Shown piece by piece: positions 16,620-63,990 of a stretch of DNA of 64,000 nt; position 1 is the first letter of the stretch; the number at the start of each line of letters is the position of its first letter. The position numbers and the translations under genes are program-made. The DNA lies in assembly GCA_949740725.1 (NCBI GenBank), contig CATJIO010000174.1:8137-72136 (forward strand), in the 5' to 3' direction. Below the pieces are notes generated by a model. That model saw only the letters and a program-made list of their open reading frames with translations. It was not told where the DNA came from and made no database searches. Origin of the DNA: an uncultured Lachnospiraceae bacterium. Lineage in GTDB: Bacteria; Bacillota; Clostridia; Lachnospirales; Lachnospiraceae.

Positions 16620-17282
16620 ATGAAGGAATTAAAACAAGAAAAAGAGTTTTTGACACAGCTGATGGATATGCTGGAACAGCAGATGGGCCCTCATACAGAG
16701 ATTGTTCTCCATGACCTGAAGAAGGATTATGCTACGACCATCGTGGATATCCGCAATGGCCATGTGACTGGACGGAAGGTTGGGGGGACTGGGAGTAATC
16801 TGGGACTGGAGGTTTTACAGGGGACGGTGAAGGATGGCAATCGGTTTAACTATGTTACCCGATTAAAGGATAACCGGATGCTTCGCTCCTCGTCCTTGTA
16901 TATTGAAGATGATGAGGGGAACCTGATCGGATGCCTTTGTGTGAATACGGATATTACTGAGAGCATCAAGCTGGAGAATTACTTAAAGGAGATTAATCAG
17001 TACGACATAAGCCCGGCGGATAAGCAGGAGGTCTTTGTCACAGAGGTTAATCAGCTTTTGGAATATCTTCTCCAGGAGGGACAAAAGATCGTAGGGAAGC
17101 CGGCCTGTGTGATGAACCGTGAGGAGAAGCTCCAGTTTCTGAAATATTTAAACGATAAGGGGGCATTTCTCATTACAAAATCCGGGGAACGAATCCAATC
17201 GTTTTTAGGGATCTCCAAATATACCATGTATACCTATCTGGATATCATTAAGAAGGAAGAGGCAGGATCAAAAACTGAATAA
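16620..17282 (+). CDS. YheO/DauR-type PAS-HTH transcriptional regulator
   Basis: EIVLHDL, IRNGHVTGRKVGG, LRSSSLYI, GCLCVN, GAFLITKS, GISKYTMYTYL. Confidence 0.88.
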   Translation: MKELKQEKEFLTQLMDMLEQQMGPHTEIVLHDLKKDYATTIVDIRNGHVTGRKVGGTGSNLGLEVLQGTVKDGNRFNYVTRLKDNRMLRSSSLYIEDDEGNLIGCLCVNTDITESIKLENYLKEINQYDISPADKQEVFVTEVNQLLEYLLQEGQKIVGKPACVMNREEKLQFLKYLNDKGAFLITKSGERIQSFLGISKYTMYTYLDIIKKEEAGSKTE

Positions 17283-26658: not shown

Positions 26659-26687
26659 ATTATGACATATTTTGCCCTATTCGTCTA
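26659..26687 (-). promoter_or_regulatory. Putative sigmaA promoter of uraA
   Basis: TAGACG-17nt-CATAAT with TG extension on minus strand. Confidence 0.5.
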
Positions 26688-27584
26688 CGGGAAATCAAAT
26701 AAACTGAGCTGGGTATTTTCGTAACCGCGCTTGTAAGCAGGGATAATGTCGCTCATGCGGTACAGGATTTTCTTTTCTTCACAGGCCTTTGCAAAGGTAT
26801 CCCACAACTGCTTTGCCCGGGAGCTAGTGCAGAAATAGGCATTTTTGTAGGTCTTCAGATACCTGGATTTTAACCCATCTCCGGGAAAAAGCTCTTCCAG
26901 ACGATCCAGATACCATTCTTTTTGATTATCCCGCAGGGTCATTCCAAAGGCAGGATAGATAAACCGCGCTCCGGCCTCCCCTGCCATGGAGATCAGGCGC
27001 AGGATGTCTTCTTCCCGATCTTCCAGAAAGGGGAGGACGGGCATCAGGAGGATCCCGGCGAAGAGCCCACGGGAGGAGAGGCGGGCGATAAGCTCCATCC
27101 GCTGGGAGGATGGGGGAGCATAAGGCTCTACCTTTTTGGATAATTCATCATGGGGAGTGGTGATGGTTATCTTACAGAGCACAGGGGAGTGCTCCCGAAT
27201 GCTCTGTAGAATGTCCGCGTCCCGTTCCAGCAGCGTACTTTTGGTCGCAATGCCGATGCCGAACCCGAAGGCATCCGCCAGCTCCAGGGCATGTCGGGTA
27301 AGCTGTAGCTCTTTTTCAAAGGGATTATAAGGGTCGCTCATGGAGCCGGTCCCTAACACCCCCTTTTTCACCTTTCGTCGCAGATCATCCCGGATTATGG
27401 CCAGGGCATTTTCCTTAACCTTTACCTGTTCGAACTCTTTGATCTGGTAGCAGGAGGATCGGCTGGCGCAGGAGATGCATCCGTGACAGCAACCACGGTA
27501 GATATTCATATTGTAGTTTATTCCGAACCAGCTGCTGTCTTTGGTTCGGGTGACAATGTGCTTTGCGGGTATTTGTTCGATCAT
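26685..27584 (-). CDS. Radical SAM protein (SPL-like/Rv2578c-type)
   Basis: NIYRGCCHGCISC, GSMSDPY, TKS, LMPVLPF, C-terminal QLSLF. Confidence 0.8.
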   Translation of the reverse strand: MIEQIPAKHIVTRTKDSSWFGINYNMNIYRGCCHGCISCASRSSCYQIKEFEQVKVKENALAIIRDDLRRKVKKGVLGTGSMSDPYNPFEKELQLTRHALELADAFGFGIGIATKSTLLERDADILQSIREHSPVLCKITITTPHDELSKKVEPYAPPSSQRMELIARLSSRGLFAGILLMPVLPFLEDREEDILRLISMAGEAGARFIYPAFGMTLRDNQKEWYLDRLEELFPGDGLKSRYLKTYKNAYFCTSSRAKQLWDTFAKACEEKKILYRMSDIIPAYKRGYENTQLSLFDFP

Positions 27585-27597
27585 GGCCTATTCTCCA

Positions 27598-28527
27598 TTA
27601 TGTCTTTTCACCAAAATATTTTTGAAACAGACGTCGTGCATCTTTGGCAAGCTCATTTTCCATGGCCAGATAACGGGTTAAGTAATCCTTTGATTTGGGG
27701 GTAAGCTGGGAAAAGCCGCCGTCAGCACCGCCGGACTGAGTGAGTAAAAGGGGGAAGCCCAGGTGCTTTTCTGCCTCTTTTACAATCTTCCAGCCTTTGC
27801 TGTAGGACATGTGCATCTGCCGGCAGGCGGTCTGCATGGATCCGGTGTGCTCCACCAGACTTAAAAACTGGGCGATCCCAGGGCCGAAAAAGATGTCGTC
27901 CCCTTCCAGATACAGCTGCAGGACGCTGTGGATGGGGATCTTTTGGGAGCGGTCATAGCGGCTTTTACAGTCTTCCTCCGTCTCAATGGAAAGGCTGATT
28001 CCTTGATCCTCCACGGGAATTTCTTCAATCAGAGTATTAATGGAATCCTGGCGCAGGGCGCCATTCAGTCCACCAGGGCCTTCATAGCGGAGGAGAGAAG
28101 GAATAAGGGAGGTGGATAAAAGGACTGGATGACCGCGCCGCCCATTATACACGGGACAGGCGGCCTTTTTTTTGGTCTGGAGAAGCTGCCTGACGGTATT
28201 CTCCAGAAATAAAGGATATTTTACTGGAAGAATCAGCACTTGACTGCAGAGATCCTCCACATAATTCAATCCCATCCGCACACTGTCAAACATTTGGGTA
28301 GTCTGGTATTCTTCATTGCGCAGACAGATGATCCGCAATTTGGACACATGTTTTTCGACTTGGTCTCCGTCCCGGCCGGTGACGATGACGATGGGGTCGA
28401 TTTCCGCCTGCCTGAGCATGATAATGATGCGGCGGATCACTGTGGTTCCCCCGATAGGCATCAGAGGCTGAAAATTTTCCTGAGACAGATTGTGGCCGGC
28501 TGCGATGATAACGGCTCCTGTTTTCAT
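27598..28527 (-). CDS. Fusion of degenerate MocA/MobA-like NTP-transferase domain and C-terminal ModE-type winged HTH
   Basis: N-term GAVIIAAG...GRRGHPVL; C-term FFGPG...TGS...MSYSKGW...LGFPLL...GGADGG..LT; start MKTGAV at 28527. Confidence 0.8.
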   Translation of the reverse strand: MKTGAVIIAAGHNLSQENFQPLMPIGGTTVIRRIIIMLRQAEIDPIVIVTGRDGDQVEKHVSKLRIICLRNEEYQTTQMFDSVRMGLNYVEDLCSQVLILPVKYPLFLENTVRQLLQTKKKAACPVYNGRRGHPVLLSTSLIPSLLRYEGPGGLNGALRQDSINTLIEEIPVEDQGISLSIETEEDCKSRYDRSQKIPIHSVLQLYLEGDDIFFGPGIAQFLSLVEHTGSMQTACRQMHMSYSKGWKIVKEAEKHLGFPLLLTQSGGADGGFSQLTPKSKDYLTRYLAMENELAKDARRLFQKYFGEKT

Positions 28528-28602
28528 AATGGCTTCCTCGCTGGACATTTTTTTGAAACAAATAGAGTATACCACGGATGCAGGAGTCTGAACAGTAACC
28601 AT

Positions 28603-28631
28603 TTGTAATCCCTTCACCTATACGGTATACT
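28603..28631 (+). promoter_or_regulatory. sigmaA promoter of yqeC fusion (divergent extended -10 TGGTATACT on minus strand at 28566-28574)
   Basis: TTGTAA-17nt-TATACT. Confidence 0.6.
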
Positions 28632-28665
28632 AAGGACAGAATTAGGATGTGCTTAAAGGAGTGCT

Positions 28666-29961
28666 GTGCAGATGAAAAAAGGATATGTAATTGCTGTGGT
28701 GGGTTCCGGGGGAAAGACCACTCTGATAGAAACCATTGCCAGGCAGGCTAAGAATTCTGGAAAGAAGGTGGTAGTGATGACCACCACTCATATGAGACTT
28801 CCAGAACGGGACAGCGCAGTAGGAAGGCCTCTGGAGGAGGCGGCAAAGCAGATGGAGCGGGAGGGATTAATCTATTATGGCGTTTATGGGGATGAAGAGG
28901 GAAAGATGGGATATCCAGGAAGGGAGGCATATGAAAGGCTGTGCGAAAGGGCGGATGTGGTGTTGGTAGAGGCAGACGGATCCCGAAGGCTTCCCATGAA
29001 GGCGCCTGACTGGTCCAGGGAGCCGGTAATCCCGGTAAATGCGGACATGGTGCTGGTGGTATTTGGCCTTTCCGCTTTGGGAAGACCTCTGAAAGAAGTA
29101 TGCCACCGTTGGAGGCTGGGCCTTCCATGGATTTTGGACACTCAGGGACAGGCGCCCAAGGAGCCGGGTTGCAGCCTTGTTACAGAGGACATGGCAGCAG
29201 AATTTCTGGAGAAGGGGTATTTAAAGGCTATCCGTACACGCTATCCGGATGCGGGCCTGGTCACGCTCCTGAATCAGGCTGATGGAAAGGCAGCGCAGGA
29301 GAAAGGGGAGCGGATAAGGAAAGGTCTGGCACAGAAGGGCTATGCGGCGCAGGTGATTTGCCTAAGGCAGATGACCTTATCGGTGATTTACCTGGCCTCC
29401 GGCTTTGGAAAGCGGTTTGGGAAGAATAAGCTTTTGGAAATACTGGAGGGAAAGCCTCTGTTTGCCCATGGGCTGGGGACAATCCTGAAATTGAGGGCTT
29501 ATTTAGAGGCGGAAATGGGGATCCGGACCAGAGTGGTATTGGTGAGCCAGTATCCGGAGATTCTGGATTTTGGAAAAGAGATGGGGGTGGAAGTGGTGGA
29601 AAATCCCTGTGCGGCAGAAGGGATTACCGCGTCTATCCGTCTGGGGACGGAGGCAGCTGGGGAGAATGAGGATTATTACCTCTATGCTGTAGCCGATCAA
29701 CCCTGGCTAAGGTGGGAGACCGTGGCAGGGCTGATCCAGCATTTTCTCCCCCGAACCTATTCGGATCAGGTATCCATAGGATGTTTGGCCTGCGGCAAAA
29801 GGCAGGGGAACCCGGTGATCTTTCATAAAAGGCACCGGGCAGAACTTCTCACCCTGAAGGGGGATAGGGGGGGAAGCCAGCTGATAAAGCGGTACCCTGA
29901 AGAGGTGATGGAATATCCGGCAGAGGCCGGGGAGCTGGTGGATATTGACACGCCAGTTTAA
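28666..29961 (+). CDS. yqeC: YqeC selenium-cofactor protein fused to MocA-like Moco cytidylyltransferase
   Basis: VVGSGGKTT, MTTTHM, VEADGSRRLPMKAP..EP (YqeC); LASGFGKRFGKNKLL, VADQP, GNPV, GDRGG, DIDTP (MocA). Confidence 0.87.
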   Translation: MQMKKGYVIAVVGSGGKTTLIETIARQAKNSGKKVVVMTTTHMRLPERDSAVGRPLEEAAKQMEREGLIYYGVYGDEEGKMGYPGREAYERLCERADVVLVEADGSRRLPMKAPDWSREPVIPVNADMVLVVFGLSALGRPLKEVCHRWRLGLPWILDTQGQAPKEPGCSLVTEDMAAEFLEKGYLKAIRTRYPDAGLVTLLNQADGKAAQEKGERIRKGLAQKGYAAQVICLRQMTLSVIYLASGFGKRFGKNKLLEILEGKPLFAHGLGTILKLRAYLEAEMGIRTRVVLVSQYPEILDFGKEMGVEVVENPCAAEGITASIRLGTEAAGENEDYYLYAVADQPWLRWETVAGLIQHFLPRTYSDQVSIGCLACGKRQGNPVIFHKRHRAELLTLKGDRGGSQLIKRYPEEVMEYPAEAGELVDIDTPV

Positions 29962-48761: not shown

Positions 48762-49433
48762 TCAGGATGCGGTTTCCTCCTCATGCTTTCGGTTATTCAC
48801 ATCAATGTAACTGTAGAGCGTGAACTTGGAAATCCCGAAATACTTAGAAACCTTGTCTCCTGATTTGGTAATCAGGAATGCTCCCGCATCGTTGAGAAAC
48901 TGAATGGCCTTGATCTTTTCCTCCTTATTCATCAGGGCCGCCGGCTTCCCTACCAGGCTGACGGACTGCTCCAACAGGTGGTCCAGCAGGTCATTTACAT
49001 TGGTTACAATCTGCTCCAGCGGGGTGTCATTTACCGGCTTATCGGTCTGAATTAAGGACTTGATCGCCTGGTCGAAGCTTACCAGCCCGGTGATATCATA
49101 ATTAATCGAAAGCATGTACCGGACCTCGCCCTTTTCATTCCGGATGTAAAGAGTGCTGGACTTTAAAATCCGACCGTCCGAGGTCTTTGTCAGGTAACCG
49201 GTGTGATCTTGGAGGGAATCGGGATGGCGCTTCACCGCGTCCATGGCTTCTAAAGCGGCTTTGGAAGGCCCGCCGCCCACCTGGCGATGAGTGATATGCC
49301 CATTTTCAATGTAGACAATGGAACGTTCCATATCCTGGGACTTCAGATCGTGGATGACGATTTCGCAGTCAGAACCAAATTGACTGGCGAAGCCCTTTGC
49401 GATCTGGATTAACAATTCTAAGGTATAGTTCAT
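48762..49433 (-). CDS. YheO/DauR-type PAS-HTH regulator of the purine cluster
   Basis: EIVIHDL, IENGHIT.RQVGG, LKSSTLYI, GAFLITKSG, GISKFTLYSY. Confidence 0.88.
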   Translation of the reverse strand: MNYTLELLIQIAKGFASQFGSDCEIVIHDLKSQDMERSIVYIENGHITHRQVGGGPSKAALEAMDAVKRHPDSLQDHTGYLTKTSDGRILKSSTLYIRNEKGEVRYMLSINYDITGLVSFDQAIKSLIQTDKPVNDTPLEQIVTNVNDLLDHLLEQSVSLVGKPAALMNKEEKIKAIQFLNDAGAFLITKSGDKVSKYFGISKFTLYSYIDVNNRKHEEETAS

Positions 49434-58478: not shown

Positions 58479-59054
58479 TTACGAATGGTCAAGCCCCTTT
58501 AGCGCGCAAGCGCTCAGCCGGGCGAGAATCGCCTCGCGGTATTGGGCATGGTGGGGCATTCCGCCTCCCATTCCCCCAAACTTTGGCAGCATAAGCTTGA
58601 GAAAATTACCATTTTTCATGGTGATAGAGCAGTTAAACGACCCCATCCATCCCTTTTTGACGACGCATTTTCGTATCTCGTCCAGTGGGAAGCAGCTGCC
58701 CACATCCTGGACAGCGATAGTGGTATGGAGTTCCTCTGCCACAGTGCCGTTCAGATCCGGATGATCGTTAAATTCATAAAGGTGCATGTACGATTCACAT
58801 TCGGAAAGGATCAAATAATGCTGAGTTATCCCGATATATACATCCGATTTTGAGTACTTGCACTTGCTGATTTCCAGGGTAGCTCCATTTTTTTCCGGGA
58901 TCAGCTGCTCTCCGATAAGAATGCAATTTACAAAAACCTGTTTAATTTCTGATGCAATTCCAATACCATGTATGCCTGCGATCAGCGTTTCGCCTTTGGG
59001 AATCCGCTGCTCTAAATATTGTATCATAGTTTTTTCATCGAAAATACTGGACAT
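58479..59054 (-). CDS. Hypothetical protein
   Basis: 191-aa ORF with AAGGAGG RBS, directly downstream of the Imm51-like gene. Confidence 0.7.
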   Translation of the reverse strand: MSSIFDEKTMIQYLEQRIPKGETLIAGIHGIGIASEIKQVFVNCILIGEQLIPEKNGATLEISKCKYSKSDVYIGITQHYLILSECESYMHLYEFNDHPDLNGTVAEELHTTIAVQDVGSCFPLDEIRKCVVKKGWMGSFNCSITMKNGNFLKLMLPKFGGMGGGMPHHAQYREAILARLSACALKGLDHS

Positions 59055-59072: not shown

Positions 59073-59598
59073 TTAATCCCACTCAATCTCGTTGCCTTCT
59101 TCTCTTATAATTCGATATAGCTCATCTTCATGATCAATCAAAGATACCCTTAGTGGACAAAGGGACACACGGTTTTGCACCACAGCAGTGGGATTCTGCC
59201 GCTAAGGCACAAAACTCCTTTGGATCCCAAGTACCGGATTTTGGTGACTGGCAAGGCAACGGAATGAGGCGTACTGGACGTACGCCGATTGACGGTAACG
59301 CCGCCAGCCGCCAAAAGACGGCCCTTGGGGCGTGTATCCCCTTGTCCACTGAGGGTATGATAATCTCGGCAAAGCATTCAGCCTTTTGTTCATTTTCCCT
59401 GGTTAATGTATAGAAGGCGGCATAAGAACCTGCTTCTGGGTCACTGTCCATTCCTTTCAAAAGATCCGGTGCATGTTTTGAAAGGTAGTAATTGAAAAAA
59501 GCGTCCCAGTTGTAGCCATTCATATAGGCATTTTTATTGATTTCAGCCATCCTTTCACCAATGGAAAAGGGTTTATCAATTTTTACGTAGTCAGGCAT
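59073..59598 (-). pseudogene. Imm51-like immunity protein interrupted by a MITE
   Basis: AYMNGYNW...DPEAG motif; removing 59147-59357 restores a 104-aa ORF ending AEIIISLIDHEDELYRIIREEGNEIEWD*. Confidence 0.8.
59147..59355. mobile_element. 209-bp MITE with 25-bp TIRs and TA target-site duplication
   Basis: TIRs CCCTTAGTGGACAAAGGGACACACG / CCCTCAGTGGACAAGGGGATACACG (22/25 identical), flanked by TA at 59145-59146 and 59356-59357; no transposase. Confidence 0.88.
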
Positions 59599-59812: not shown

Positions 59813-59848
59813 AAGCCGGTCTGTTTAAAAGGCAGACGGGCTTTTTTT
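59813..59848 (+). terminator. Terminator-like hairpin in the 5' region of yedE
   Basis: AAGCCGGTCTGTTT-AAA-AGGCAGACGGGCTT followed by a T-run. Confidence 0.6.
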
Positions 59849-59855
59849 ATACCAC

Positions 59856-59879
59856 CGTTATATTTTTGAAAATATAACG
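59856..59879. promoter_or_regulatory. ModE-type operator
   Basis: Perfect palindrome CGTTATATTTT-TG-AAAATATAACG, matching the 24-bp CGTTATAT-N8-ATATAACG ModE box. Confidence 0.65.
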
Positions 59880-59906: not shown

Positions 59907-60962
59907 ATGGATACTAAGAAAATGTTGGCCCTTTGGGGCGTGCTGCTGGGAGGGATTGCCGGGGCGCTGGCATTCTTCGGAAATCCGGGAAATATGGCCT
60001 TTTGCATTGCCTGTTTCGTCAGGGACATGGCCGGGGCGGCCAGGTTTCATCAGGCGGCCATTGTTCAGTATATGCGGCCGGAAATCATGGGATTGATCCT
60101 GGGGTCTTTTGCCATCGCTCTCGCCGGAGGGGAATACCGCTCTACTGGAGGATCGTCTCCGATGATCCGCTTCTTGCTGGGGGTGATTACCATGATCGGC
60201 GCGCTGATTTTTTTAGGCTGTCCTCTGCGGATGGTGCTGCGGATGGCAGGAGGAGACTTAAATGCGTACGTGGCCTTTGTGGGCTTTGGCTTTGGGGCGG
60301 CAGTGGGAAGCTTTTTTCTGAAAAGAGGCTTCAGCCTGGGGAGGGCCTATGATACGCAGAAGACAAGTGGGTATGTGCTTCCAGGAATTATGGCGCTGCT
60401 GCTGGCCCTTAGCCTGACGACTTCCGTTTTCACCGCCAGCACAGAGGGACCGGGCAGCATGCATGCGCCTCTTCTCCTTGCCCTGTCCGGCGGCCTTCTC
60501 TTCGGCGCCATTGCCCAGAAGGCCAGGACCTGTTTCGCAGGGGGAATACGGGATGCGATCCTGATGAAAAACTTTGACCTTCTGACGGTAATCGGGGCAT
60601 TATTTGCAACAATGCTTGTTTATAATGTGGCAGCTGGGAAATTCGCCCTTGGCTTTGCAGGACAGCCGGTGGCCCATACGGAACATATCTGGAACTTCCT
60701 TGGTATGTTTACTGTGGGGCTGGCAGCAGTCCTGGCAGGGGGATGCCCTTTGCGGCAGCTGATTCTGGCGGGACAAGGATCGGGAGACTCTGGGATTTAT
60801 GTGGTCGGCATGTTTGTGGGAGCTGCGATCTGCCATAATTTTGGATTGGCCTCCAGTGGGAATGGAACTACAGCGGCGGGAAGGATTGCCTGTGTGGTCT
60901 GCATTATCTTCTTGCTGGCTGTGGGGATGGGATGCAGGAGGGAGAGCGCTATCAAAAAGTAA
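59907..60962 (+). CDS. yedE: YedE-family putative selenium transporter
   Basis: GNPGNMAFCIACFVRD, QYMRPEI, GCPLR twice, multiple TM segments. Confidence 0.9.
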   Translation: MDTKKMLALWGVLLGGIAGALAFFGNPGNMAFCIACFVRDMAGAARFHQAAIVQYMRPEIMGLILGSFAIALAGGEYRSTGGSSPMIRFLLGVITMIGALIFLGCPLRMVLRMAGGDLNAYVAFVGFGFGAAVGSFFLKRGFSLGRAYDTQKTSGYVLPGIMALLLALSLTTSVFTASTEGPGSMHAPLLLALSGGLLFGAIAQKARTCFAGGIRDAILMKNFDLLTVIGALFATMLVYNVAAGKFALGFAGQPVAHTEHIWNFLGMFTVGLAAVLAGGCPLRQLILAGQGSGDSGIYVVGMFVGAAICHNFGLASSGNGTTAAGRIACVVCIIFLLAVGMGCRRESAIKK

Positions 60963-60984
60963 AATAGATAAGGAGGAAAACAAT

Positions 60985-61188
60985 ATGGAAATCGATGTCA
61001 GAGGGTTGTCTTGTCCAGAACCGGTTTTGATGGTTATGGATGCTATGGACGAAAACCCGGGGGAAAGGCTAGTGGTGCAGTCCGATGCGGCCCATACGCG
61101 GGACAATCTGGTAAAGCTGGCTCAGACCGAGGGGCGGAAAGCGACGGTTTCTGAGCATGGCAGGATTTACGAAATTGTGATAGAATAA
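60985..61188 (+). CDS. TusA-family sulfur/selenium carrier
   Basis: [12 protein letters not shown]; AAGGAGG RBS; start trimmed from ORF track. Confidence 0.85.
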
Positions 61189-61243
61189 GATAATCCTTCA
61201 GACGGCAGGCATGCCGTCTGAAAGGCTGGTACAGAAAAGAGGG

Positions 61244-62275
61244 ATGAGATTGAAGGAAGAACAACCAGTATTTTGTAAAGGCGGTGGATGCACGGCGAAG
61301 CTGGGGCCGGGGGCGTTAAGCCGTGTCCTGGAACAGATTCCAAAAACTTATGATCCGAATCTGCTTATTGGCTACGACAGCTCTGATGACGCTGCGGTAT
61401 ATCGTCTGAGCGATGACCTGGCCATTGTGCAGACGCTGGACTTTTTTCCACCTATGGTGGAGGATCCTTATACCTTCGGCCAGATCGCCGCGGCTAATGC
61501 GCTGAGCGATATCTATGCCATGGGCGGGGAGGTGAAAACCGCATTAAATATTGTCTGCTTCCCAGAATCTATGGATTTAAATATTTTAGGGCAGATCCTC
61601 TTAGGAGGCAGCGAAAAGGTGCGGGAAGCAGGAGGTGTGCTGGCGGGGGGACATTCCATCGCAGACCAGGATGTGAAATACGGTTTGTCTGTGACCGGGG
61701 TGATTCACCCAGGCCGGATATTTGCTAATAACGGATGTCAGGAGGGGGATGTGCTTCTGCTGACTAAGCCGCTTGGCGTGGGGATTGTGTGCACGGCTTC
61801 CCGGGTGGGAGAGGCGTCGAAGGAGGCCATGGATCTGGCGGTAAAGTCCATGACCACCTTGAATAAATATGCGGCAGAGACAGTGAAAAAATACCGTACT
61901 CATGGCTGTACCGATGTGACGGGATTTGGCTTCCTGGCTCATCTGTGTGAGATGCTGGGAGACCGGTTCAGCGCGGTGATCCATCAGAAGGCGATTCCTT
62001 TTATCCCAGAATGCCCAGAGTATGTGGAGGAGTTTTACCTGACCGCCGCCGGTCAGCGAAACCGAAATCATGTTCAGGACAAAGTTCAGTTTGTGGACTG
62101 CTCCTTTGCCATTGAGGAGATCCTCTACGATGCCCAGACCTCCGGCGGCCTTTTGGTCAGCATGGAGGCGGAAGACGGAGAGAAGGCCTTGGAGGAATTA
62201 AAGGCATTGGGCCTGCCCTGCGGCATTGTAGGACGTGTGGCAAAAAAGGGCAGGAAGACAGTGGTGGTTCAGTAG
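61244..62275 (+). CDS. selD: Selenide, water dikinase (Cys form)
   Basis: [50 protein letters not shown]. Confidence 0.95.
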
Positions 62276-62415
62276 TCGATATTCAGGAAGGTGTTTTTTG
62301 CAGGGAAAACTACAGAACCCTTGGACAGCGCACGGAAGAAAAAATAGCAGGTGACTGGACATAATGTGGAAGGGATTGGCTTAAGTGAAGAAAAATTTAG
62401 AAATGGAGGACGGAG

Positions 62416-63099
62416 ATGAGGCTGGATGAGAGAGGAAAACCATGCCCGCTGCCAGTGATTGAGGCGAAGAAGGCACTGGAAAAGGTGGAGCCGGGGGACA
62501 TGGTGGAAGTTGTGGTGGATAATGAGATTGCTGTACAGAATTTAAAAAAACTTGCCAGCCATAAGGGGCTGGAATCTACTTCTGAACGGATGAGCAGTCA
62601 GGAATTTGTGGTGTCCATCAAGGCCGGGGCAGGGAAAGCACCTGAGCAGGACAGGTTATTCAATCAGAAGGGGGCGTCCGGTCAGGCCAATACCGCTGGT
62701 CAAAGGGAAGATGGGGGCCAGGAAGAGGACAGGGAAATCACCTGCCAGCCAGATATCCGGGATAAGAGTATGGTGGCAGTATTATCCTCAGACCAGATGG
62801 GGCAGGGAGATGAGGCTTTGGGAAGGCTGTTGATGAAGGGCTTTGTCTATGCATTGACTCAGCAGGACAAACTTCCGGGGACAGTCCTGCTCTATAATGG
62901 AGGCGCCAGGCTTTCCTGTGAAGGCTCAGATTCTCTGGTGGATTTGAAGGAGCTTCAAACCCAGGGGGTGGAGATCTTAACCTGCGGCACCTGCCTAAAT
63001 TATTACGGGTTGGGAGAGAAGCTGGCCGTGGGCTCGGTTACCAATATGTATGAAATCACAGAGCGGATGACTGGTGCAAAAAAGCTTGTGCGGCCTTAG
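62416..63099 (+). CDS. yedF: YedF sulfurtransferase-like selenium metabolism protein (TusA plus DsrE-like domains)
   Basis: RGKPCPLPV, VDNEIAVQNL, LGRLLMKGF, YNGG, CGTCLNYY, VGSVTNM. Confidence 0.9.
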   Translation: MRLDERGKPCPLPVIEAKKALEKVEPGDMVEVVVDNEIAVQNLKKLASHKGLESTSERMSSQEFVVSIKAGAGKAPEQDRLFNQKGASGQANTAGQREDGGQEEDREITCQPDIRDKSMVAVLSSDQMGQGDEALGRLLMKGFVYALTQQDKLPGTVLLYNGGARLSCEGSDSLVDLKELQTQGVEILTCGTCLNYYGLGEKLAVGSVTNMYEITERMTGAKKLVRP

Positions 63100-63162
63100 C
63101 CGGACAGATCTCCCGGCAGACCAGAGGGCAAAAACAATACGCAAAGAAAGGAAACAAGGAAA

Positions 63163-63990
63163 ATGTCTAATCGCAGCAGCCAGTTTATTATCGTCCGGGG
63201 AGGCGGGGATATTGCCACCGGGACCATTCATAAGCTTCACCGGTGCGGATACCCGGTGCTGGTTTTGGAGACTGGATATCCCTCGGCCATTCGCAGGCAT
63301 GTGGCCTTTTCTGAGGCAGTGTACGATGGTTTCAGCGAGGTGGAAAATGTCCGGTGCATTCATGGAAAGGATTATGAGGAGGCAAAGGAGATTCTGGCCG
63401 GAGGAGATGTAGCCCTTTTAGTGGATCCGGAATGCAGGGTATTGGAGAGGGCGCGTCCCTGGGCGCTGATCGACGGCATTCTGGCGAAGAAAAATCTGGG
63501 AACCAATCGGGATATGGCGGACAAGACCATTGCCCTTGGGCCTGGGTTTTGCGCAGGGAAGGATGTGGATCTGGTGATTGAGACCATGAGGGGCCATAAC
63601 CTGGGACGAATTATCGGGAATGGCTGTGCGCTGCCCAATACTGGAATTCCCGGGAATATTGCGGGATTTGGAAAAGAACGGGTGATCCATTCCCCGGCCA
63701 GGGGGATTCTCCGGGGACTCTGCCAGATTGGGGATAAAGTGAAAAAGGATCAGCCAATCGGGGTGGTGGTCACCGGGCAGGGGGAGGTGATGGTGAAAGC
63801 CACCATGGACGGGATTCTCCGGGGGTTAATCCGTTCTGGCTATCCAGTAACAGAAGGGCTTAAGATTGCGGATATTGACCCGAGAGAATCAGAGTTTGAA
63901 AACTGTTTTACTATCTCCGATAAGGCTAGGTGCATCGCTGGTTCGGTGCTGGAAGGCCTGCTTTACCTGGAAGAAAAGCAAGGGAAATAA
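63163..63990 (+). CDS. yqeB: Selenium-dependent molybdenum cofactor protein YqeB
   Basis: VRGGGDIATG, IRRHVAFSEAV, DGILAKKN, ETMRGHNLG, KIADIDPR, ISDKARCIAG. Confidence 0.93.
   Translation: MSNRSSQFIIVRGGGDIATGTIHKLHRCGYPVLVLETGYPSAIRRHVAFSEAVYDGFSEVENVRCIHGKDYEEAKEILAGGDVALLVDPECRVLERARPWALIDGILAKKNLGTNRDMADKTIALGPGFCAGKDVDLVIETMRGHNLGRIIGNGCALPNTGIPGNIAGFGKERVIHSPARGILRGLCQIGDKVKKDQPIGVVVTGQGEVMVKATMDGILRGLIRSGYPVTEGLKIADIDPRESEFENCFTISDKARCIAGSVLEGLLYLEEKQGK

What the first reader, a model, noticed from the sequence alone, without database searches (positions are those of the whole stretch)
27598..28527. Probably inactive MocA-like domain fused to a ModE HTH: candidate cofactor-sensing regulator
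Seen: the NTP-transferase domain keeps fold landmarks but has lost catalytic residues: AAGHNLSQENFQPL (no R/K of AAGxSxRxGxxK), PVKYP (no Asp of xDxP), SIETEED (for DIDTxED). The divergent neighbour YqeC-MocA keeps all three motifs. The C-terminus is a ModE-type wHTH with no molybdate-binding TOBE domains. Inference: a pseudo-enzyme sensor that reads Moco/MCD or a nucleotide instead of molybdate and controls maturation genes of the Se-dependent molybdoenzyme. I know of no characterised regulator with this architecture.
Basis: partly seen in the sequence, partly recalled or inferred. Interest (0 to 1): 0.72.

Follow-up and report, generated by a model that had tools for sequence, protein, structure and literature searches.

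The report
ModE-type regulator with dead MocA sensor
This gene encodes a conserved but uncharacterised transcription factor of gut Clostridia, in which a catalytically dead copy of a molybdenum-cofactor enzyme is joined to a ModE-type DNA-binding domain, and it most likely controls the genes that supply molybdenum, its cofactor and selenium to purine-degrading enzymes.

Summary
Residues 1-190 are a MobA/MocA-fold domain that lacks the catalytic Arg, Lys and Asp. Residues ~195-305 are a ModE-type winged helix. There is no Mop/TOBE domain.

The architecture is a large family: 281 clusters (50% identity) at E<=1e-30. Close orthologues (54-92% identity) share the degenerate motifs, and the dead domain is under strong purifying selection (dN/dS 0.05-0.13). 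Of 137 full-length fused representatives, 29 keep all three residues. The tree needs at least 13 switches between intact and degenerate.

The new evidence is a canonical ModE operator, CGTTAT-N12-ATAACG. The genome has exactly two perfect copies:
- window 59856-59879, before yedE-selD-yedF-yqeB;
- another contig, before moeA-moaC-moaA-moaB-modABC-xdhC.

In 36 related loci there are 37 boxes against 1 for a control pattern, and 36 lie just upstream of such operons. In this genome and its five nearest relatives the fusion is the only ModE-type HTH found.

It is therefore most likely the ModE equivalent of this clade, with an enzyme-derived sensor. The ligand (Mo-MPT, MCD or a nucleotide) is inferred only. 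The 28530-28665 "operator" is two promoters. This is a new variant of a known kind.

The parts
27598..28527 (-). Coding sequence of the 309-aa fusion protein (MocA-like domain plus ModE-type wHTH), stop codon included
   Evidence: There are 418 homologues of the same length. The model has pLDDT 95.1.
27958..28527 (-). Residues 1-190: MobA/MocA-fold NTP_transf_3 domain with a degenerate catalytic signature (S15, Q20, K103, S180, E182 in place of R, K, D, D, D)
   Evidence: Pfam E 4.5e-22. VIA Z 22.3 to Rv0371c and 18.6 to MobA. Motif columns. dN/dS 0.05-0.13.
27598..27954 (-). Residues 192-309: ModE-type winged helix-turn-helix with the predicted dimer interface (strand 196-212, helix 285-305). 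No Mop/TOBE domain follows.
   Evidence: TIGR00637 E 9e-13. 2ijl E 3.8e-13. Foldseek best hits are 1b9m, 2ijl and 1o7l. Homodimer prediction.
28566..28574 (-). Extended -10 element (TGGTATACT) of the fusion gene's promoter
   Evidence: Read directly from the sequence. The same element lies before the orthologues in L035 and L063, with TGTTATACT in L036 and L038.
28603..28631 (+). Promoter-like site (TTGTAA-17-TATACT) of the divergent yqeC-mocA gene. It accounts for the second GGTATACT repeat.
28666..29961 (+). Divergent neighbour: YqeC fused to a catalytically intact MocA-like cytidylyltransferase
   Evidence: TIGR03172 at 159 bits, above its cut-off. NTP_transf_3 E 4.4e-27. Motifs intact.
26685..27584 (-). 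Radical SAM gene (Rv2578c/PA0069-like), 13 nt downstream on the same strand, probably co-transcribed. Its role is unknown.
   Evidence: The pairing is conserved in the nearest relatives L035-L039.
59856..59879 (.). Perfect ModE-type operator (Mo-box), CGTTATAT-N8-ATATAACG, 27 nt before the yedE start codon. It is the predicted binding site of the fusion protein.
   Evidence: It is the only match with up to 1 mismatch in the window, against 0.04 expected. It is one of two perfect core sites in the genome. The same box lies before yedE or selD in G081-G084 and in L043 and L067.
59907..63990 (+). Predicted target operon: yedE (59907-60962), selD (61211-62275), yedF (62416-63099), yqeB (63163-63990). 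These supply selenium and mature selenium-dependent molybdenum hydroxylases.
   Evidence: TIGR04112, TIGR03527 and TIGR03309 all score above their cut-offs. AIRS and AIRS_C domains identify SelD.

Best explanation
The protein is the ModE-equivalent transcription factor of this Lachnospiraceae lineage.

Proposed mechanism:
- It forms a homodimer through its C-terminal ModE-type winged-helix domain.
- The dimer binds the palindromic Mo-box CGTTAT-N12-ATAACG.
- The box overlaps the transcription start or leader of two operons. One is moeA-moaC-moaA-MOSC/moaB-modABC-xdhC (another contig), which provides cofactor synthesis, molybdate uptake and the XdhC chaperone. The other is yedE-selD-yedF-yqeB (window 59907-63990), which provides selenium uptake and activation for selenium-dependent molybdenum hydroxylases.
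- From the position of the box, it most likely represses both operons.

In place of ModE's molybdate-binding Mop domains it carries a MocA-like nucleotidyltransferase domain. That domain has lost its catalytic Arg, Lys and Asp but is strongly conserved, so it serves as the effector-binding module. The most likely effector is a substrate or product of the MocA reaction (Mo-MPT, MCD, or CTP). That would give end-product feedback on cofactor supply.

Status of each step:
- Shown here: the architecture, the loss of motifs under purifying selection, and the conserved operator and its target genes.
- Inferred: that this protein binds the box, the direction of regulation, and the identity of the effector.
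For: Architecture and fold.

The degenerate motifs are conserved in orthologues of 54-92% identity. In unsaturated pairs the N-domain has dN/dS 0.05-0.13 and the HTH 0.02-0.09.

Family-wide decay of the motifs. Of 137 full-length fused representatives, 29 are intact, 37 have lost all three residues, and the rest are mixed. On a 143-row alignment that adds 14 close orthologues, the counts are 27 intact, 43 with none and 73 partial. That tree needs at least 13 intact/degenerate changes. Catalysis is therefore dispensable for the family's common function.

The enzyme activity is covered elsewhere. An intact MocA lies next door. Intact standalone MocA-like paralogues occur in relatives.

Operator in this genome. 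There are two perfect CGTTAT-N12-ATAACG sites in 3.34 Mb. Both have AT-rich spacers and both lie before the operons named above. The moeA site starts 9 nt after a -10-like hexamer.

Operator in relatives. In 36 loci there are 37 boxes against 1 for the reversed-pattern control. 36 of them lie just upstream of moeA-like, modA, yedE, fusion or HTH-only genes.

Only one candidate binder. The fusion is the only ModE-type HTH found in this genome and in the five nearest genomes. In those five genomes all 8 perfect boxes precede moeA-like or yedE/selD genes.

The box belongs to an experimentally bound ModE operator class. M. acetivorans ModE binds RTTATGT-N8-RCATAAY (PMC12327845).

Synteny. The gene sits where modE usually sits: moeA...modABC-FUSION-xdhC. 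This also holds in Eubacterium barkeri.

Homodimer prediction. Score 0.72, best of 3 controls 0.00. That mark was reached by 20 of 30 proteins solved as pairs of one chain and by 1 of 23 proteins solved as single chains. The runs agree in at least 94% of contacts and the partner's pLDDT is at least 86. The interface is residues 196-212, 285-305 and 26-36. ModE dimers have been solved, so this pass may only reflect likeness.

No competing sensor was found. There is no Moco riboswitch. The only TOBE match lies in a 382-aa frame that was not examined further, so no Mop-type protein was identified.
Against:
- The genome is only 83% complete, so another ModE-type protein could be missing from it.
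- Several more distant relatives also carry an HTH-only ModE-N protein inside the yedE-selD operon. That protein could be the box binder there.
- No Mo-box lies before the fusion gene or before yqeC-mocA in this genome.
- No sigma-70-like promoter was recognised before yedE. A terminator-like hairpin sits just upstream of that box.
- Nothing tested here identifies the effector. Lys103 or His12 could in principle support an unusual catalytic or binding mode.
- Distant family members (L072, L082) show no box of this sequence.
Confidence: 0.62

Rival explanations
1. The protein binds the Mo-box, but its dead MocA-like domain senses a protein partner rather than a small molecule. The partner would be the XdhC chaperone or the MocA/MoeA machinery. 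The loading state of the cofactor-insertion chaperone would then set DNA binding.
For: In most relatives the gene directly precedes xdhC and overlaps it. XdhC here is of the XdhC_rel_AOR type (NF045664). NCBI's model for that type has the adjacent accession number to the DVU_1551-type NTP transferase model, which is the best match of the N-domain. From memory, E. coli MocA is reported to interact with cofactor-handling proteins.
Against: In this genome and its nearest relatives the gene is no longer next to xdhC. No interaction was tested, because the one complex job went to the homodimer. The P-loop-like segment (residues 11-20) is the only part of the domain that is both variable and of lower confidence. 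That fits a remodelled ligand pocket as well as it fits a remodelled protein interface.
Confidence: 0.15
2. The Mo-boxes are bound by a different ModE-type protein: an HTH-only ModE-N paralogue, or a ModE encoded in the unassembled 17% of the genome. The fusion protein would regulate something else or have a different operator.
For: HTH-only proteins of 125-145 aa, 40-47% identical to residues 192-308, lie inside yedE-[HTH]-selD operons behind a Mo-box in L043, L055, L067 and L048. Seven of 81 sampled family genomes have only such short forms. The genome is 83% complete.
Against: tblastn and the TIGR00637 model find only the fusion in this genome. They also find only the fusion in the five nearest genomes, which still have the boxes at the same operons. 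In Hungatella and Lacrimispora the box lies directly before the fusion gene itself.
Confidence: 0.1
3. The N-terminal domain is still an enzyme, using Lys103 and His12 in place of the usual residues. The protein would be a bifunctional MocA-like transferase and regulator, as the intact family members may be.
For: 29 of 137 fused representatives keep Arg, Lys and Asp. E. citroniae has a second, intact fusion. The GHP motif and the fold are fully kept. Lys103 and His12 are nearly invariant in the clade.
Against: Five signature positions are replaced together: R15, K20, D103, D180 and D182. An intact MocA is encoded next door. Intact and degenerate forms alternate on the tree at least 13 times, which points to relaxed selection on catalysis.
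Confidence: 0.06
4. The domain senses molybdate or tungstate itself, or a plain nucleotide pool signal (CTP or GTP), rather than a pterin cofactor. Function would then equal classical ModE, with a different anion or nucleotide pocket.
For: The regulon contains modABC, as for classical ModE. The fold is a nucleotide-binding fold. Related operons include FecCD/PBP2-type transporters that may import a metal species.
Against: To my knowledge (from memory) no oxyanion-binding motif is known in this fold. The phosphate-binding Arg and Lys of the nucleotide loop are the very residues that were lost.
Confidence: 0.07

Closest known systems
ModE of Escherichia coli (PDB 1b9m, 1o7l)
   Same: It has the same type of winged-helix DNA-binding and dimerisation domain, which gives the best structural hits for residues 192-309. 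It uses the same class of palindromic operator. It sits in the same genomic position next to modABC, and its predicted targets overlap (mod and moa genes).
   Different: The domain order is reversed, with the HTH at the C-terminus. The two molybdate-binding Mop/TOBE domains are absent and are replaced by a MocA-like nucleotidyltransferase fold. The regulon also covers selenium genes (yedE-selD-yedF-yqeB) and xdhC. The full-length ModE model scores 19 bits against a cut-off of 369.
ModE-N-only proteins (Agrobacterium 'putative ModE' 2ijl; HTH-only paralogues in Lachnospiraceae)
   Same: They consist of the ModE N-domain without Mop domains (2ijl E 3.8e-13, TM 0.73/0.78). They are 40-47% identical to the C-domain here, and the same Mo-box lies upstream of their genes.
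   Different: They have no sensor domain at all. Here a 190-residue enzyme-derived domain is fused and packs against the HTH (pTM 0.92).
MocA / MobA (molybdenum cofactor cytidylyl- and guanylyltransferases) and the DVU_1551-type NTP transferases
   Same: The fold is the same (Z 18.6-22.3). The best sequence model is NF045665 over its positions 2-196. The genomic association with xdhC and cofactor genes is shared.
   Different: The catalytic signature is lost. Scores are below the equivalog cut-offs (75.9 against 186, and 153.7 against 315). The DVU_1551-like relatives scanned carry a C-terminal HD domain (P0266, P0237) or a histidine-phosphatase domain (P0248), not an HTH.
Moco riboswitch (Rfam RF01055)
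   Same: If the effector is the cofactor, the logic is the same: end-product feedback on moa and mod genes.
   Different: It is RNA, not protein. No copy was found in this genome or the related loci.
Other ModE-HTH regulators with alternative sensors (TunR/TaoR of Desulfovibrio), and pseudo-nucleotidyltransferase sensors such as GMPPA
   Same: They are precedents for swapping the sensor on a ModE-type DNA-binding domain. TaoR is cited in PMC12327845. TunR's domain make-up is from memory. They are also precedents for an inactive nucleotidyltransferase paralogue that binds the pathway product. GMPPA (7d72) appears among the fold matches, but its sensing role is from memory.
   Different: They have different sensor folds (TunR/TaoR), or have no DNA-binding domain and come from a different pathway (GMPPA).

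Membership tests
ModE (full-length molybdate-responsive regulator) | ModE-type winged helix-turn-helix and dimerisation domain | tested here: met
   TIGR00637 matches residues 216-301 at E 9e-13. The score of 48 bits is below the curated 98.5. 2ijl gives E 3.8e-13. The best Foldseek hits of the isolated domain are 1b9m, 2ijl and 1o7l, ahead of LysR DNA-binding domains.
ModE (full-length molybdate-responsive regulator) | Two C-terminal molybdate-binding Mop/TOBE domains | tested here: not met
   No TOBE/Mop match. The protein ends 4 residues after the HTH domain's last helix. PRK10676 scores 19.4 bits against a cut-off of 369.
ModE (full-length molybdate-responsive regulator) | Binds a palindromic Mo-box at mod and moa promoters | not testable with these tools
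   A conserved CGTTAT-N12-ATAACG box lies before moeA/modA/yedE operons in genomes where this is the only ModE-type protein. Binding itself is not shown.
ModE (full-length molybdate-responsive regulator) | Homodimer | tested here: inconclusive
   Prediction only. Score 0.72, best control 0.00. The mark was reached by 20 of 30 proteins solved as pairs of one chain and by 1 of 23 solved as single chains. The runs agree in at least 94% of contacts and the partner's pLDDT is at least 86. This may reflect likeness to solved ModE dimers.
MocA (molybdenum cofactor cytidylyltransferase, TIGR03310) | MobA-like NTP transferase fold | tested here: met
   PF12804 E 4.5e-22. Z 22.3 to Rv0371c and 18.6 to MobA.
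MocA (molybdenum cofactor cytidylyltransferase, TIGR03310) | Catalytic signature: G-x-S-x-R-x-G-x-x-K loop, D-x-P metal site, D-x-D-T | tested here: not met
   Residues 11-20 are GHNLSQENFQ, 101-105 are PVKYP and 180-183 are SIET. The neighbouring MocA and the standalone paralogues keep all of these.
MocA (molybdenum cofactor cytidylyltransferase, TIGR03310) | Score above the equivalog cut-off | tested here: not met
   75.9 bits against 186.45.
DVU_1551 family NTP transferase (NF045665) | Full-length match, including the C-terminal half of the 359-position model | tested here: not met
   Only positions 2-196 match. The score is 153.7 bits against a cut-off of 315. Relatives with other C-terminal ends carry an HD or a His_Phos_1 domain instead.
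LysR-type transcriptional regulators | N-terminal HTH_1 plus C-terminal LysR substrate-binding domain | tested here: not met
   HTH_1 scores 25.9 bits, just under the cut-off of 26.6, and lies at the C-terminus. No LysR_substrate domain was found. Some database names call relatives 'LysR family'.

The most novel reading that the evidence does not exclude
The dead MocA-like domain binds the finished or nearly finished cofactor (Mo-MPT or MCD). This would make it the first protein transcription factor known to sense the molybdenum cofactor itself. It would be a protein counterpart of the Moco riboswitch. In gut Clostridia it would replace molybdate sensing by ModE and would couple molybdate uptake, cofactor synthesis, XdhC and selenium delivery to cofactor demand. 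Lys103 may stand in for the Mg2+ that normally contacts the pyrophosphate.
Probability: 0.3. Interest if true: 0.8.

Novelty: new variant of a known kind. Interest (0 to 1): 0.62.

Why it matters
Selenium-dependent molybdenum hydroxylases drive anaerobic degradation of purines and uric acid by gut bacteria. That process is now linked to host urate balance (bioRxiv 10.1101/2025.04.24.650524). How these bacteria regulate their supply of molybdenum, cofactor and selenium is unknown.

This work defines a large uncharacterised regulator family, with at least 281 clusters (50% identity) at E<=1e-30. It gives a precise operator and a predicted regulon that joins Mo and Se supply in one circuit.

The family is also a natural series of intact, partly decayed and fully decayed enzyme domains on one DNA-binding scaffold. 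That makes it a tractable case of an enzyme turning into a sensor.

If the effector is the cofactor, this would be a protein-based Moco sensor, which could also serve as a biosensor part.

Tried and rejected
- Operator in 28530-28665. The 17-nt direct repeat and the 8-nt inverted repeat are the -10 elements of the two divergent promoters. TGGTATACT is conserved before the orthologues. No Mo-box with up to 3 mismatches lies there.
- Full 16-position box with up to 1 mismatch across 81 family genomes. There were 9 genomes with a hit against 11 with a control hit, so loose matches are background. Only perfect or in-context sites were used.
- The same box in distant family members. L072 (an intact fusion next to moeA) gave only chance-level hits. 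None was visible before the E. barkeri gene. Distant members probably use other operators.
- Rfam. No family matched in the window or the related loci. No Moco riboswitch was found in the genome.
- Standalone Mop/TOBE. There is one TOBE match, inside a 382-aa frame outside the window. It was not examined further.
- Literature. No paper was found on DVU_1551, on MocA-ModE fusions or on a clostridial ModE regulon. The E. barkeri nicotinate paper is not held.
- Earlier findings of this scan: nothing.
- Promoter of yedE. No sigma-70-like site was recognised.
- The longer GTG-started ORF (339 aa) was rejected from the orthologue starts and the ribosome-binding site.
It was redone from stored loci.
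Full report
**1. The gene and its domains**

window:27598-28527(-) encodes a 309-aa protein. The start at 28527 is preceded by GAGGA and matches the MKTGAV start of every orthologue. The longer GTG frame listed is not used.

Sequence models:
- Pfam finds NTP_transf_3 at residues 5-160 (E 4.5e-22). It finds HTH_1 at 225-277, at 25.9 bits against a cut-off of 26.6.
- NCBIfam's best model is the DVU_1551-type NTP transferase. Only positions 2-196 of 359 match (153.7 bits, cut-off 315).
- MocA scores 75.9 bits (cut-off 186).
- The ModE repressor domain matches residues 216-301 (E 9e-13).
- No TOBE/Mop domain is present.

A profile of orthologues hits two solved structures: the Sulfolobus MobA-like protein 3d5n over residues 1-191, and the 135-aa Agrobacterium ModE-N-only protein 2ijl over residues 195-298.

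Structure prediction:
- The AlphaFold2 model is confident (pLDDT 95.1, pTM 0.92). Only residues 11-20 dip, to 71.
- The N-domain matches Rv0371c (Z 22.3), 3d5n (Z 21.9) and E. coli MobA (Z 18.6).
- The C-domain, modelled alone (pLDDT 91.4), best matches E. coli ModE (1b9m, 1o7l) and 2ijl, ahead of LysR-type DNA-binding domains.

**2. The degenerate motifs**

The divergent neighbour (28666-29961, a YqeC plus MocA-like fusion) keeps the canonical R, K, D-x-P and D-x-D-T.

All 13 close orthologues aligned (56-74% identity; Enterocloster, Hungatella, Lacrimispora and uncultured Lachnospiraceae) share the AAGH..., LPxK(Y/F)P and xE(T/S)(D/E)ED versions.

The domain is not decaying. For pairs with unsaturated dS, dN/dS is 0.05-0.13 for residues 1-190 and 0.02-0.09 for the HTH. 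This is a conserved non-catalytic domain.

**3. The family**

A search of 1.84 billion cluster representatives gives 281 clusters at E<=1e-30. Most of the best 150 are full-length fusions of about 305-320 aa, down to 30% identity.

Among the 137 full-length fused representatives:
- 29 keep Arg15, Lys20 and Asp103, with AAGxSSRMGxFKP, DxP and DADT;
- 37 have lost all three;
- the rest are mixed.

A second count used a 143-row alignment that adds 14 close orthologues. It gives 27 intact, 43 with none and 73 partial. On a tree built without the motif columns, intact and degenerate states need at least 13 changes, of which at least 5 are forced by well-supported branches.

Relatives of the same subfamily that are not fused to an HTH are all intact. 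These are standalone proteins of about 200 aa, or proteins with an HD or His_Phos_1 domain at the C-terminus. In several relatives an intact standalone copy sits just upstream of moeA, and E. citroniae has a second, intact fusion.

It holds only for a minority of distant members. The pattern is repeated loss of catalysis on a scaffold whose HTH is the most conserved part.

**4. Genomic context**

In 36 loci of close relatives the typical order is moeA-like, moaC, moaA, MOSC/moaB, modA, modB, modC, FUSION, xdhC, often followed by yqeC, mocA and matE. The gene thus sits where modE usually sits.

Other arrangements:
- In Hungatella and Lacrimispora it heads FUSION-xdhC-NTPase_1-FecCD-ABC-DUF364-PBP2.
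- In Eubacterium barkeri it heads xdhC-moeA-moaA-MOSC-modABC-FecCD....
- One Lachnospiraceae genome has three paralogues. One lies in a yqeC-yqeB-yedF-mocA-FUSION-modABC-xdhC cluster and one lies next to xanthine-dehydrogenase-like genes.
- In this genome and its nearest relatives the gene has moved beside yqeC-mocA and is followed by a radical SAM gene. The moeA...modABC-xdhC operon lies on another contig.

**5. The operator**

The palindrome at 59856-59879, CGTTATAT-N8-ATATAACG, is perfect. It lies 27 nt before the yedE start codon.

In this genome:
- The core CGTTAT-N12-ATAACG has exactly two perfect matches in the 3.34-Mb assembly, both with AT-rich spacers.
- One is the yedE site. The other lies 17 nt before the moeA-like start codon.
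- The moeA site starts 9 nt after a -10-like hexamer, a position typical of repression.

In the 36 related loci (654,607 bp):
- The pattern with up to 3 mismatches occurs 37 times, against once for the reversed control.
- 36 of the 37 lie within about 60 nt of the start of a relevant gene: moeA-like (25), modA (5), yedE (2), the fusion gene (2) or an HTH-only ModE-N gene (2).
- Mismatches fall in the inner positions, and the CGTTAT arms are about 96-100% conserved. The sites were chosen with the pattern, so part of this conservation is by construction.

The box belongs to the established ModE operator class. M. acetivorans ModE binds RTTATGT-N8-RCATAAY in EMSA (PMC12327845).

**6. Who binds it**

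Searches with TIGR00637 and with the HTH-only paralogues find only the fusion in this genome. The genome is 83% complete.

The five nearest genomes also have only the fusion. All 8 perfect boxes in them lie before moeA-like or yedE/selD genes.

More distant relatives also carry an HTH-only paralogue inside the yedE-selD operon. It may share the box there, and this is the main caveat.

A homodimer is predicted. The score is 0.72 and the best of 3 controls is 0.00. That mark was reached by 20 of 30 proteins solved as pairs of one chain and by 1 of 23 solved as single chains. The runs agree in at least 94% of contacts and the partner's pLDDT is at least 86. The interface uses the strand at residues 196-212 and the helix at 285-305, plus N-domain residues 26-36, which adjoin the degenerate loop. 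Solved ModE dimers may explain the pass.

**7. What is not supported**

- The 28528-28665 intergenic region has no Mo-box. Its repeats are TGGTATACT and TATACT promoter elements.
- No Moco riboswitch was found.
- The only TOBE match was not examined further, so no Mop-type protein was identified.
- The effector was not tested.

**8. Reading**

The best-supported explanation is a ModE-type, Mo-box-binding regulator, probably a repressor. It would control cofactor synthesis, molybdate uptake and xdhC, and also selenium supply (yedE-selD-yedF-yqeB). Its sensor is a catalytically dead MocA-like domain.

The ligand is most plausibly a substrate or product of the MocA reaction. This is inference from the domain's ancestry, the loss of the catalytic residues with the fold kept, and the regulon.

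No publication on this architecture was found. Databases name members only by domain. I rate it a new variant of a known kind.

Noticed in passing
L043:17541-17975, L055:14661-15041, L067:19987-20361, L048:707-1093: Standalone ModE-N-like HTH-only proteins (125-145 aa, 40-47% identical to residues 192-308 of the fusion). They lie between yedE and selD, or before yqeB, in several Enterocloster and Lacrimispora relatives, each behind a Mo-box. None is found in the window's genome.
   Followed up: partly
L013:8001-14302, L025:8001-14543, L028, L030: An NTPase_1-FecCD-ABC-DUF4213/DUF364-PBP2 transporter cluster is co-oriented with the fusion gene and xdhC in Hungatella and Lacrimispora. Elsewhere it has its own Mo-box (a perfect box in G033). 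This suggests an uncharacterised uptake system linked to Mo or W.
   Followed up: partly
L020, L021, L022 (genome G033): One Lachnospiraceae genome has three fusion paralogues (33-41% identity). One lies directly upstream of xanthine-dehydrogenase-like genes. This hints at enzyme-specific local regulators within the family.
   Followed up: partly
window 59818-59842: A terminator-like hairpin with a T-run lies immediately upstream of the Mo-box, and no sigma-70-like promoter was recognised before yedE. In relatives an amidohydrolase gene directly precedes the box. Here two minus-strand genes are inserted between them: 58479-59054 and the Imm51-like gene at 59134-59598.
   Followed up: partly
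window 26685-27584 (-): A radical SAM gene of the Rv2578c/PA0069 type lies 13 nt downstream of the fusion gene. The pairing is conserved in the nearest relatives (L035-L039). No link to Mo or Se metabolism is known to me.
   Followed up: no
window 16620-17282 (+) and 48762-49433 (-): Two YheO-like PAS plus HTH_22 regulators lie next to amidohydrolase/transport genes and ygeW/ygeY-type purine-catabolism genes. They are likely the substrate-level regulators of the pathway.
   Followed up: no
P0174, P0226, P0214, P0258, P0244 (metagenomic relatives): Further architectures occur in the family: HTH_1 + NTP_transf_3 + NTPase_1 (HTH at the N-terminus), two NTP_transf_3 domains + HTH, HTH_17 + NTP_transf_3 + HTH_1, and fusion + His_Phos_1.
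   Followed up: no
L049:2505, L053:2995, L056:2724, L058:1644, L059:2613, L069:533; L046:1100: Catalytically intact standalone MocA-like genes of the same subfamily lie just upstream of the moeA operon in several relatives. E. citroniae also has a second, intact full-length fusion.
   Followed up: yes
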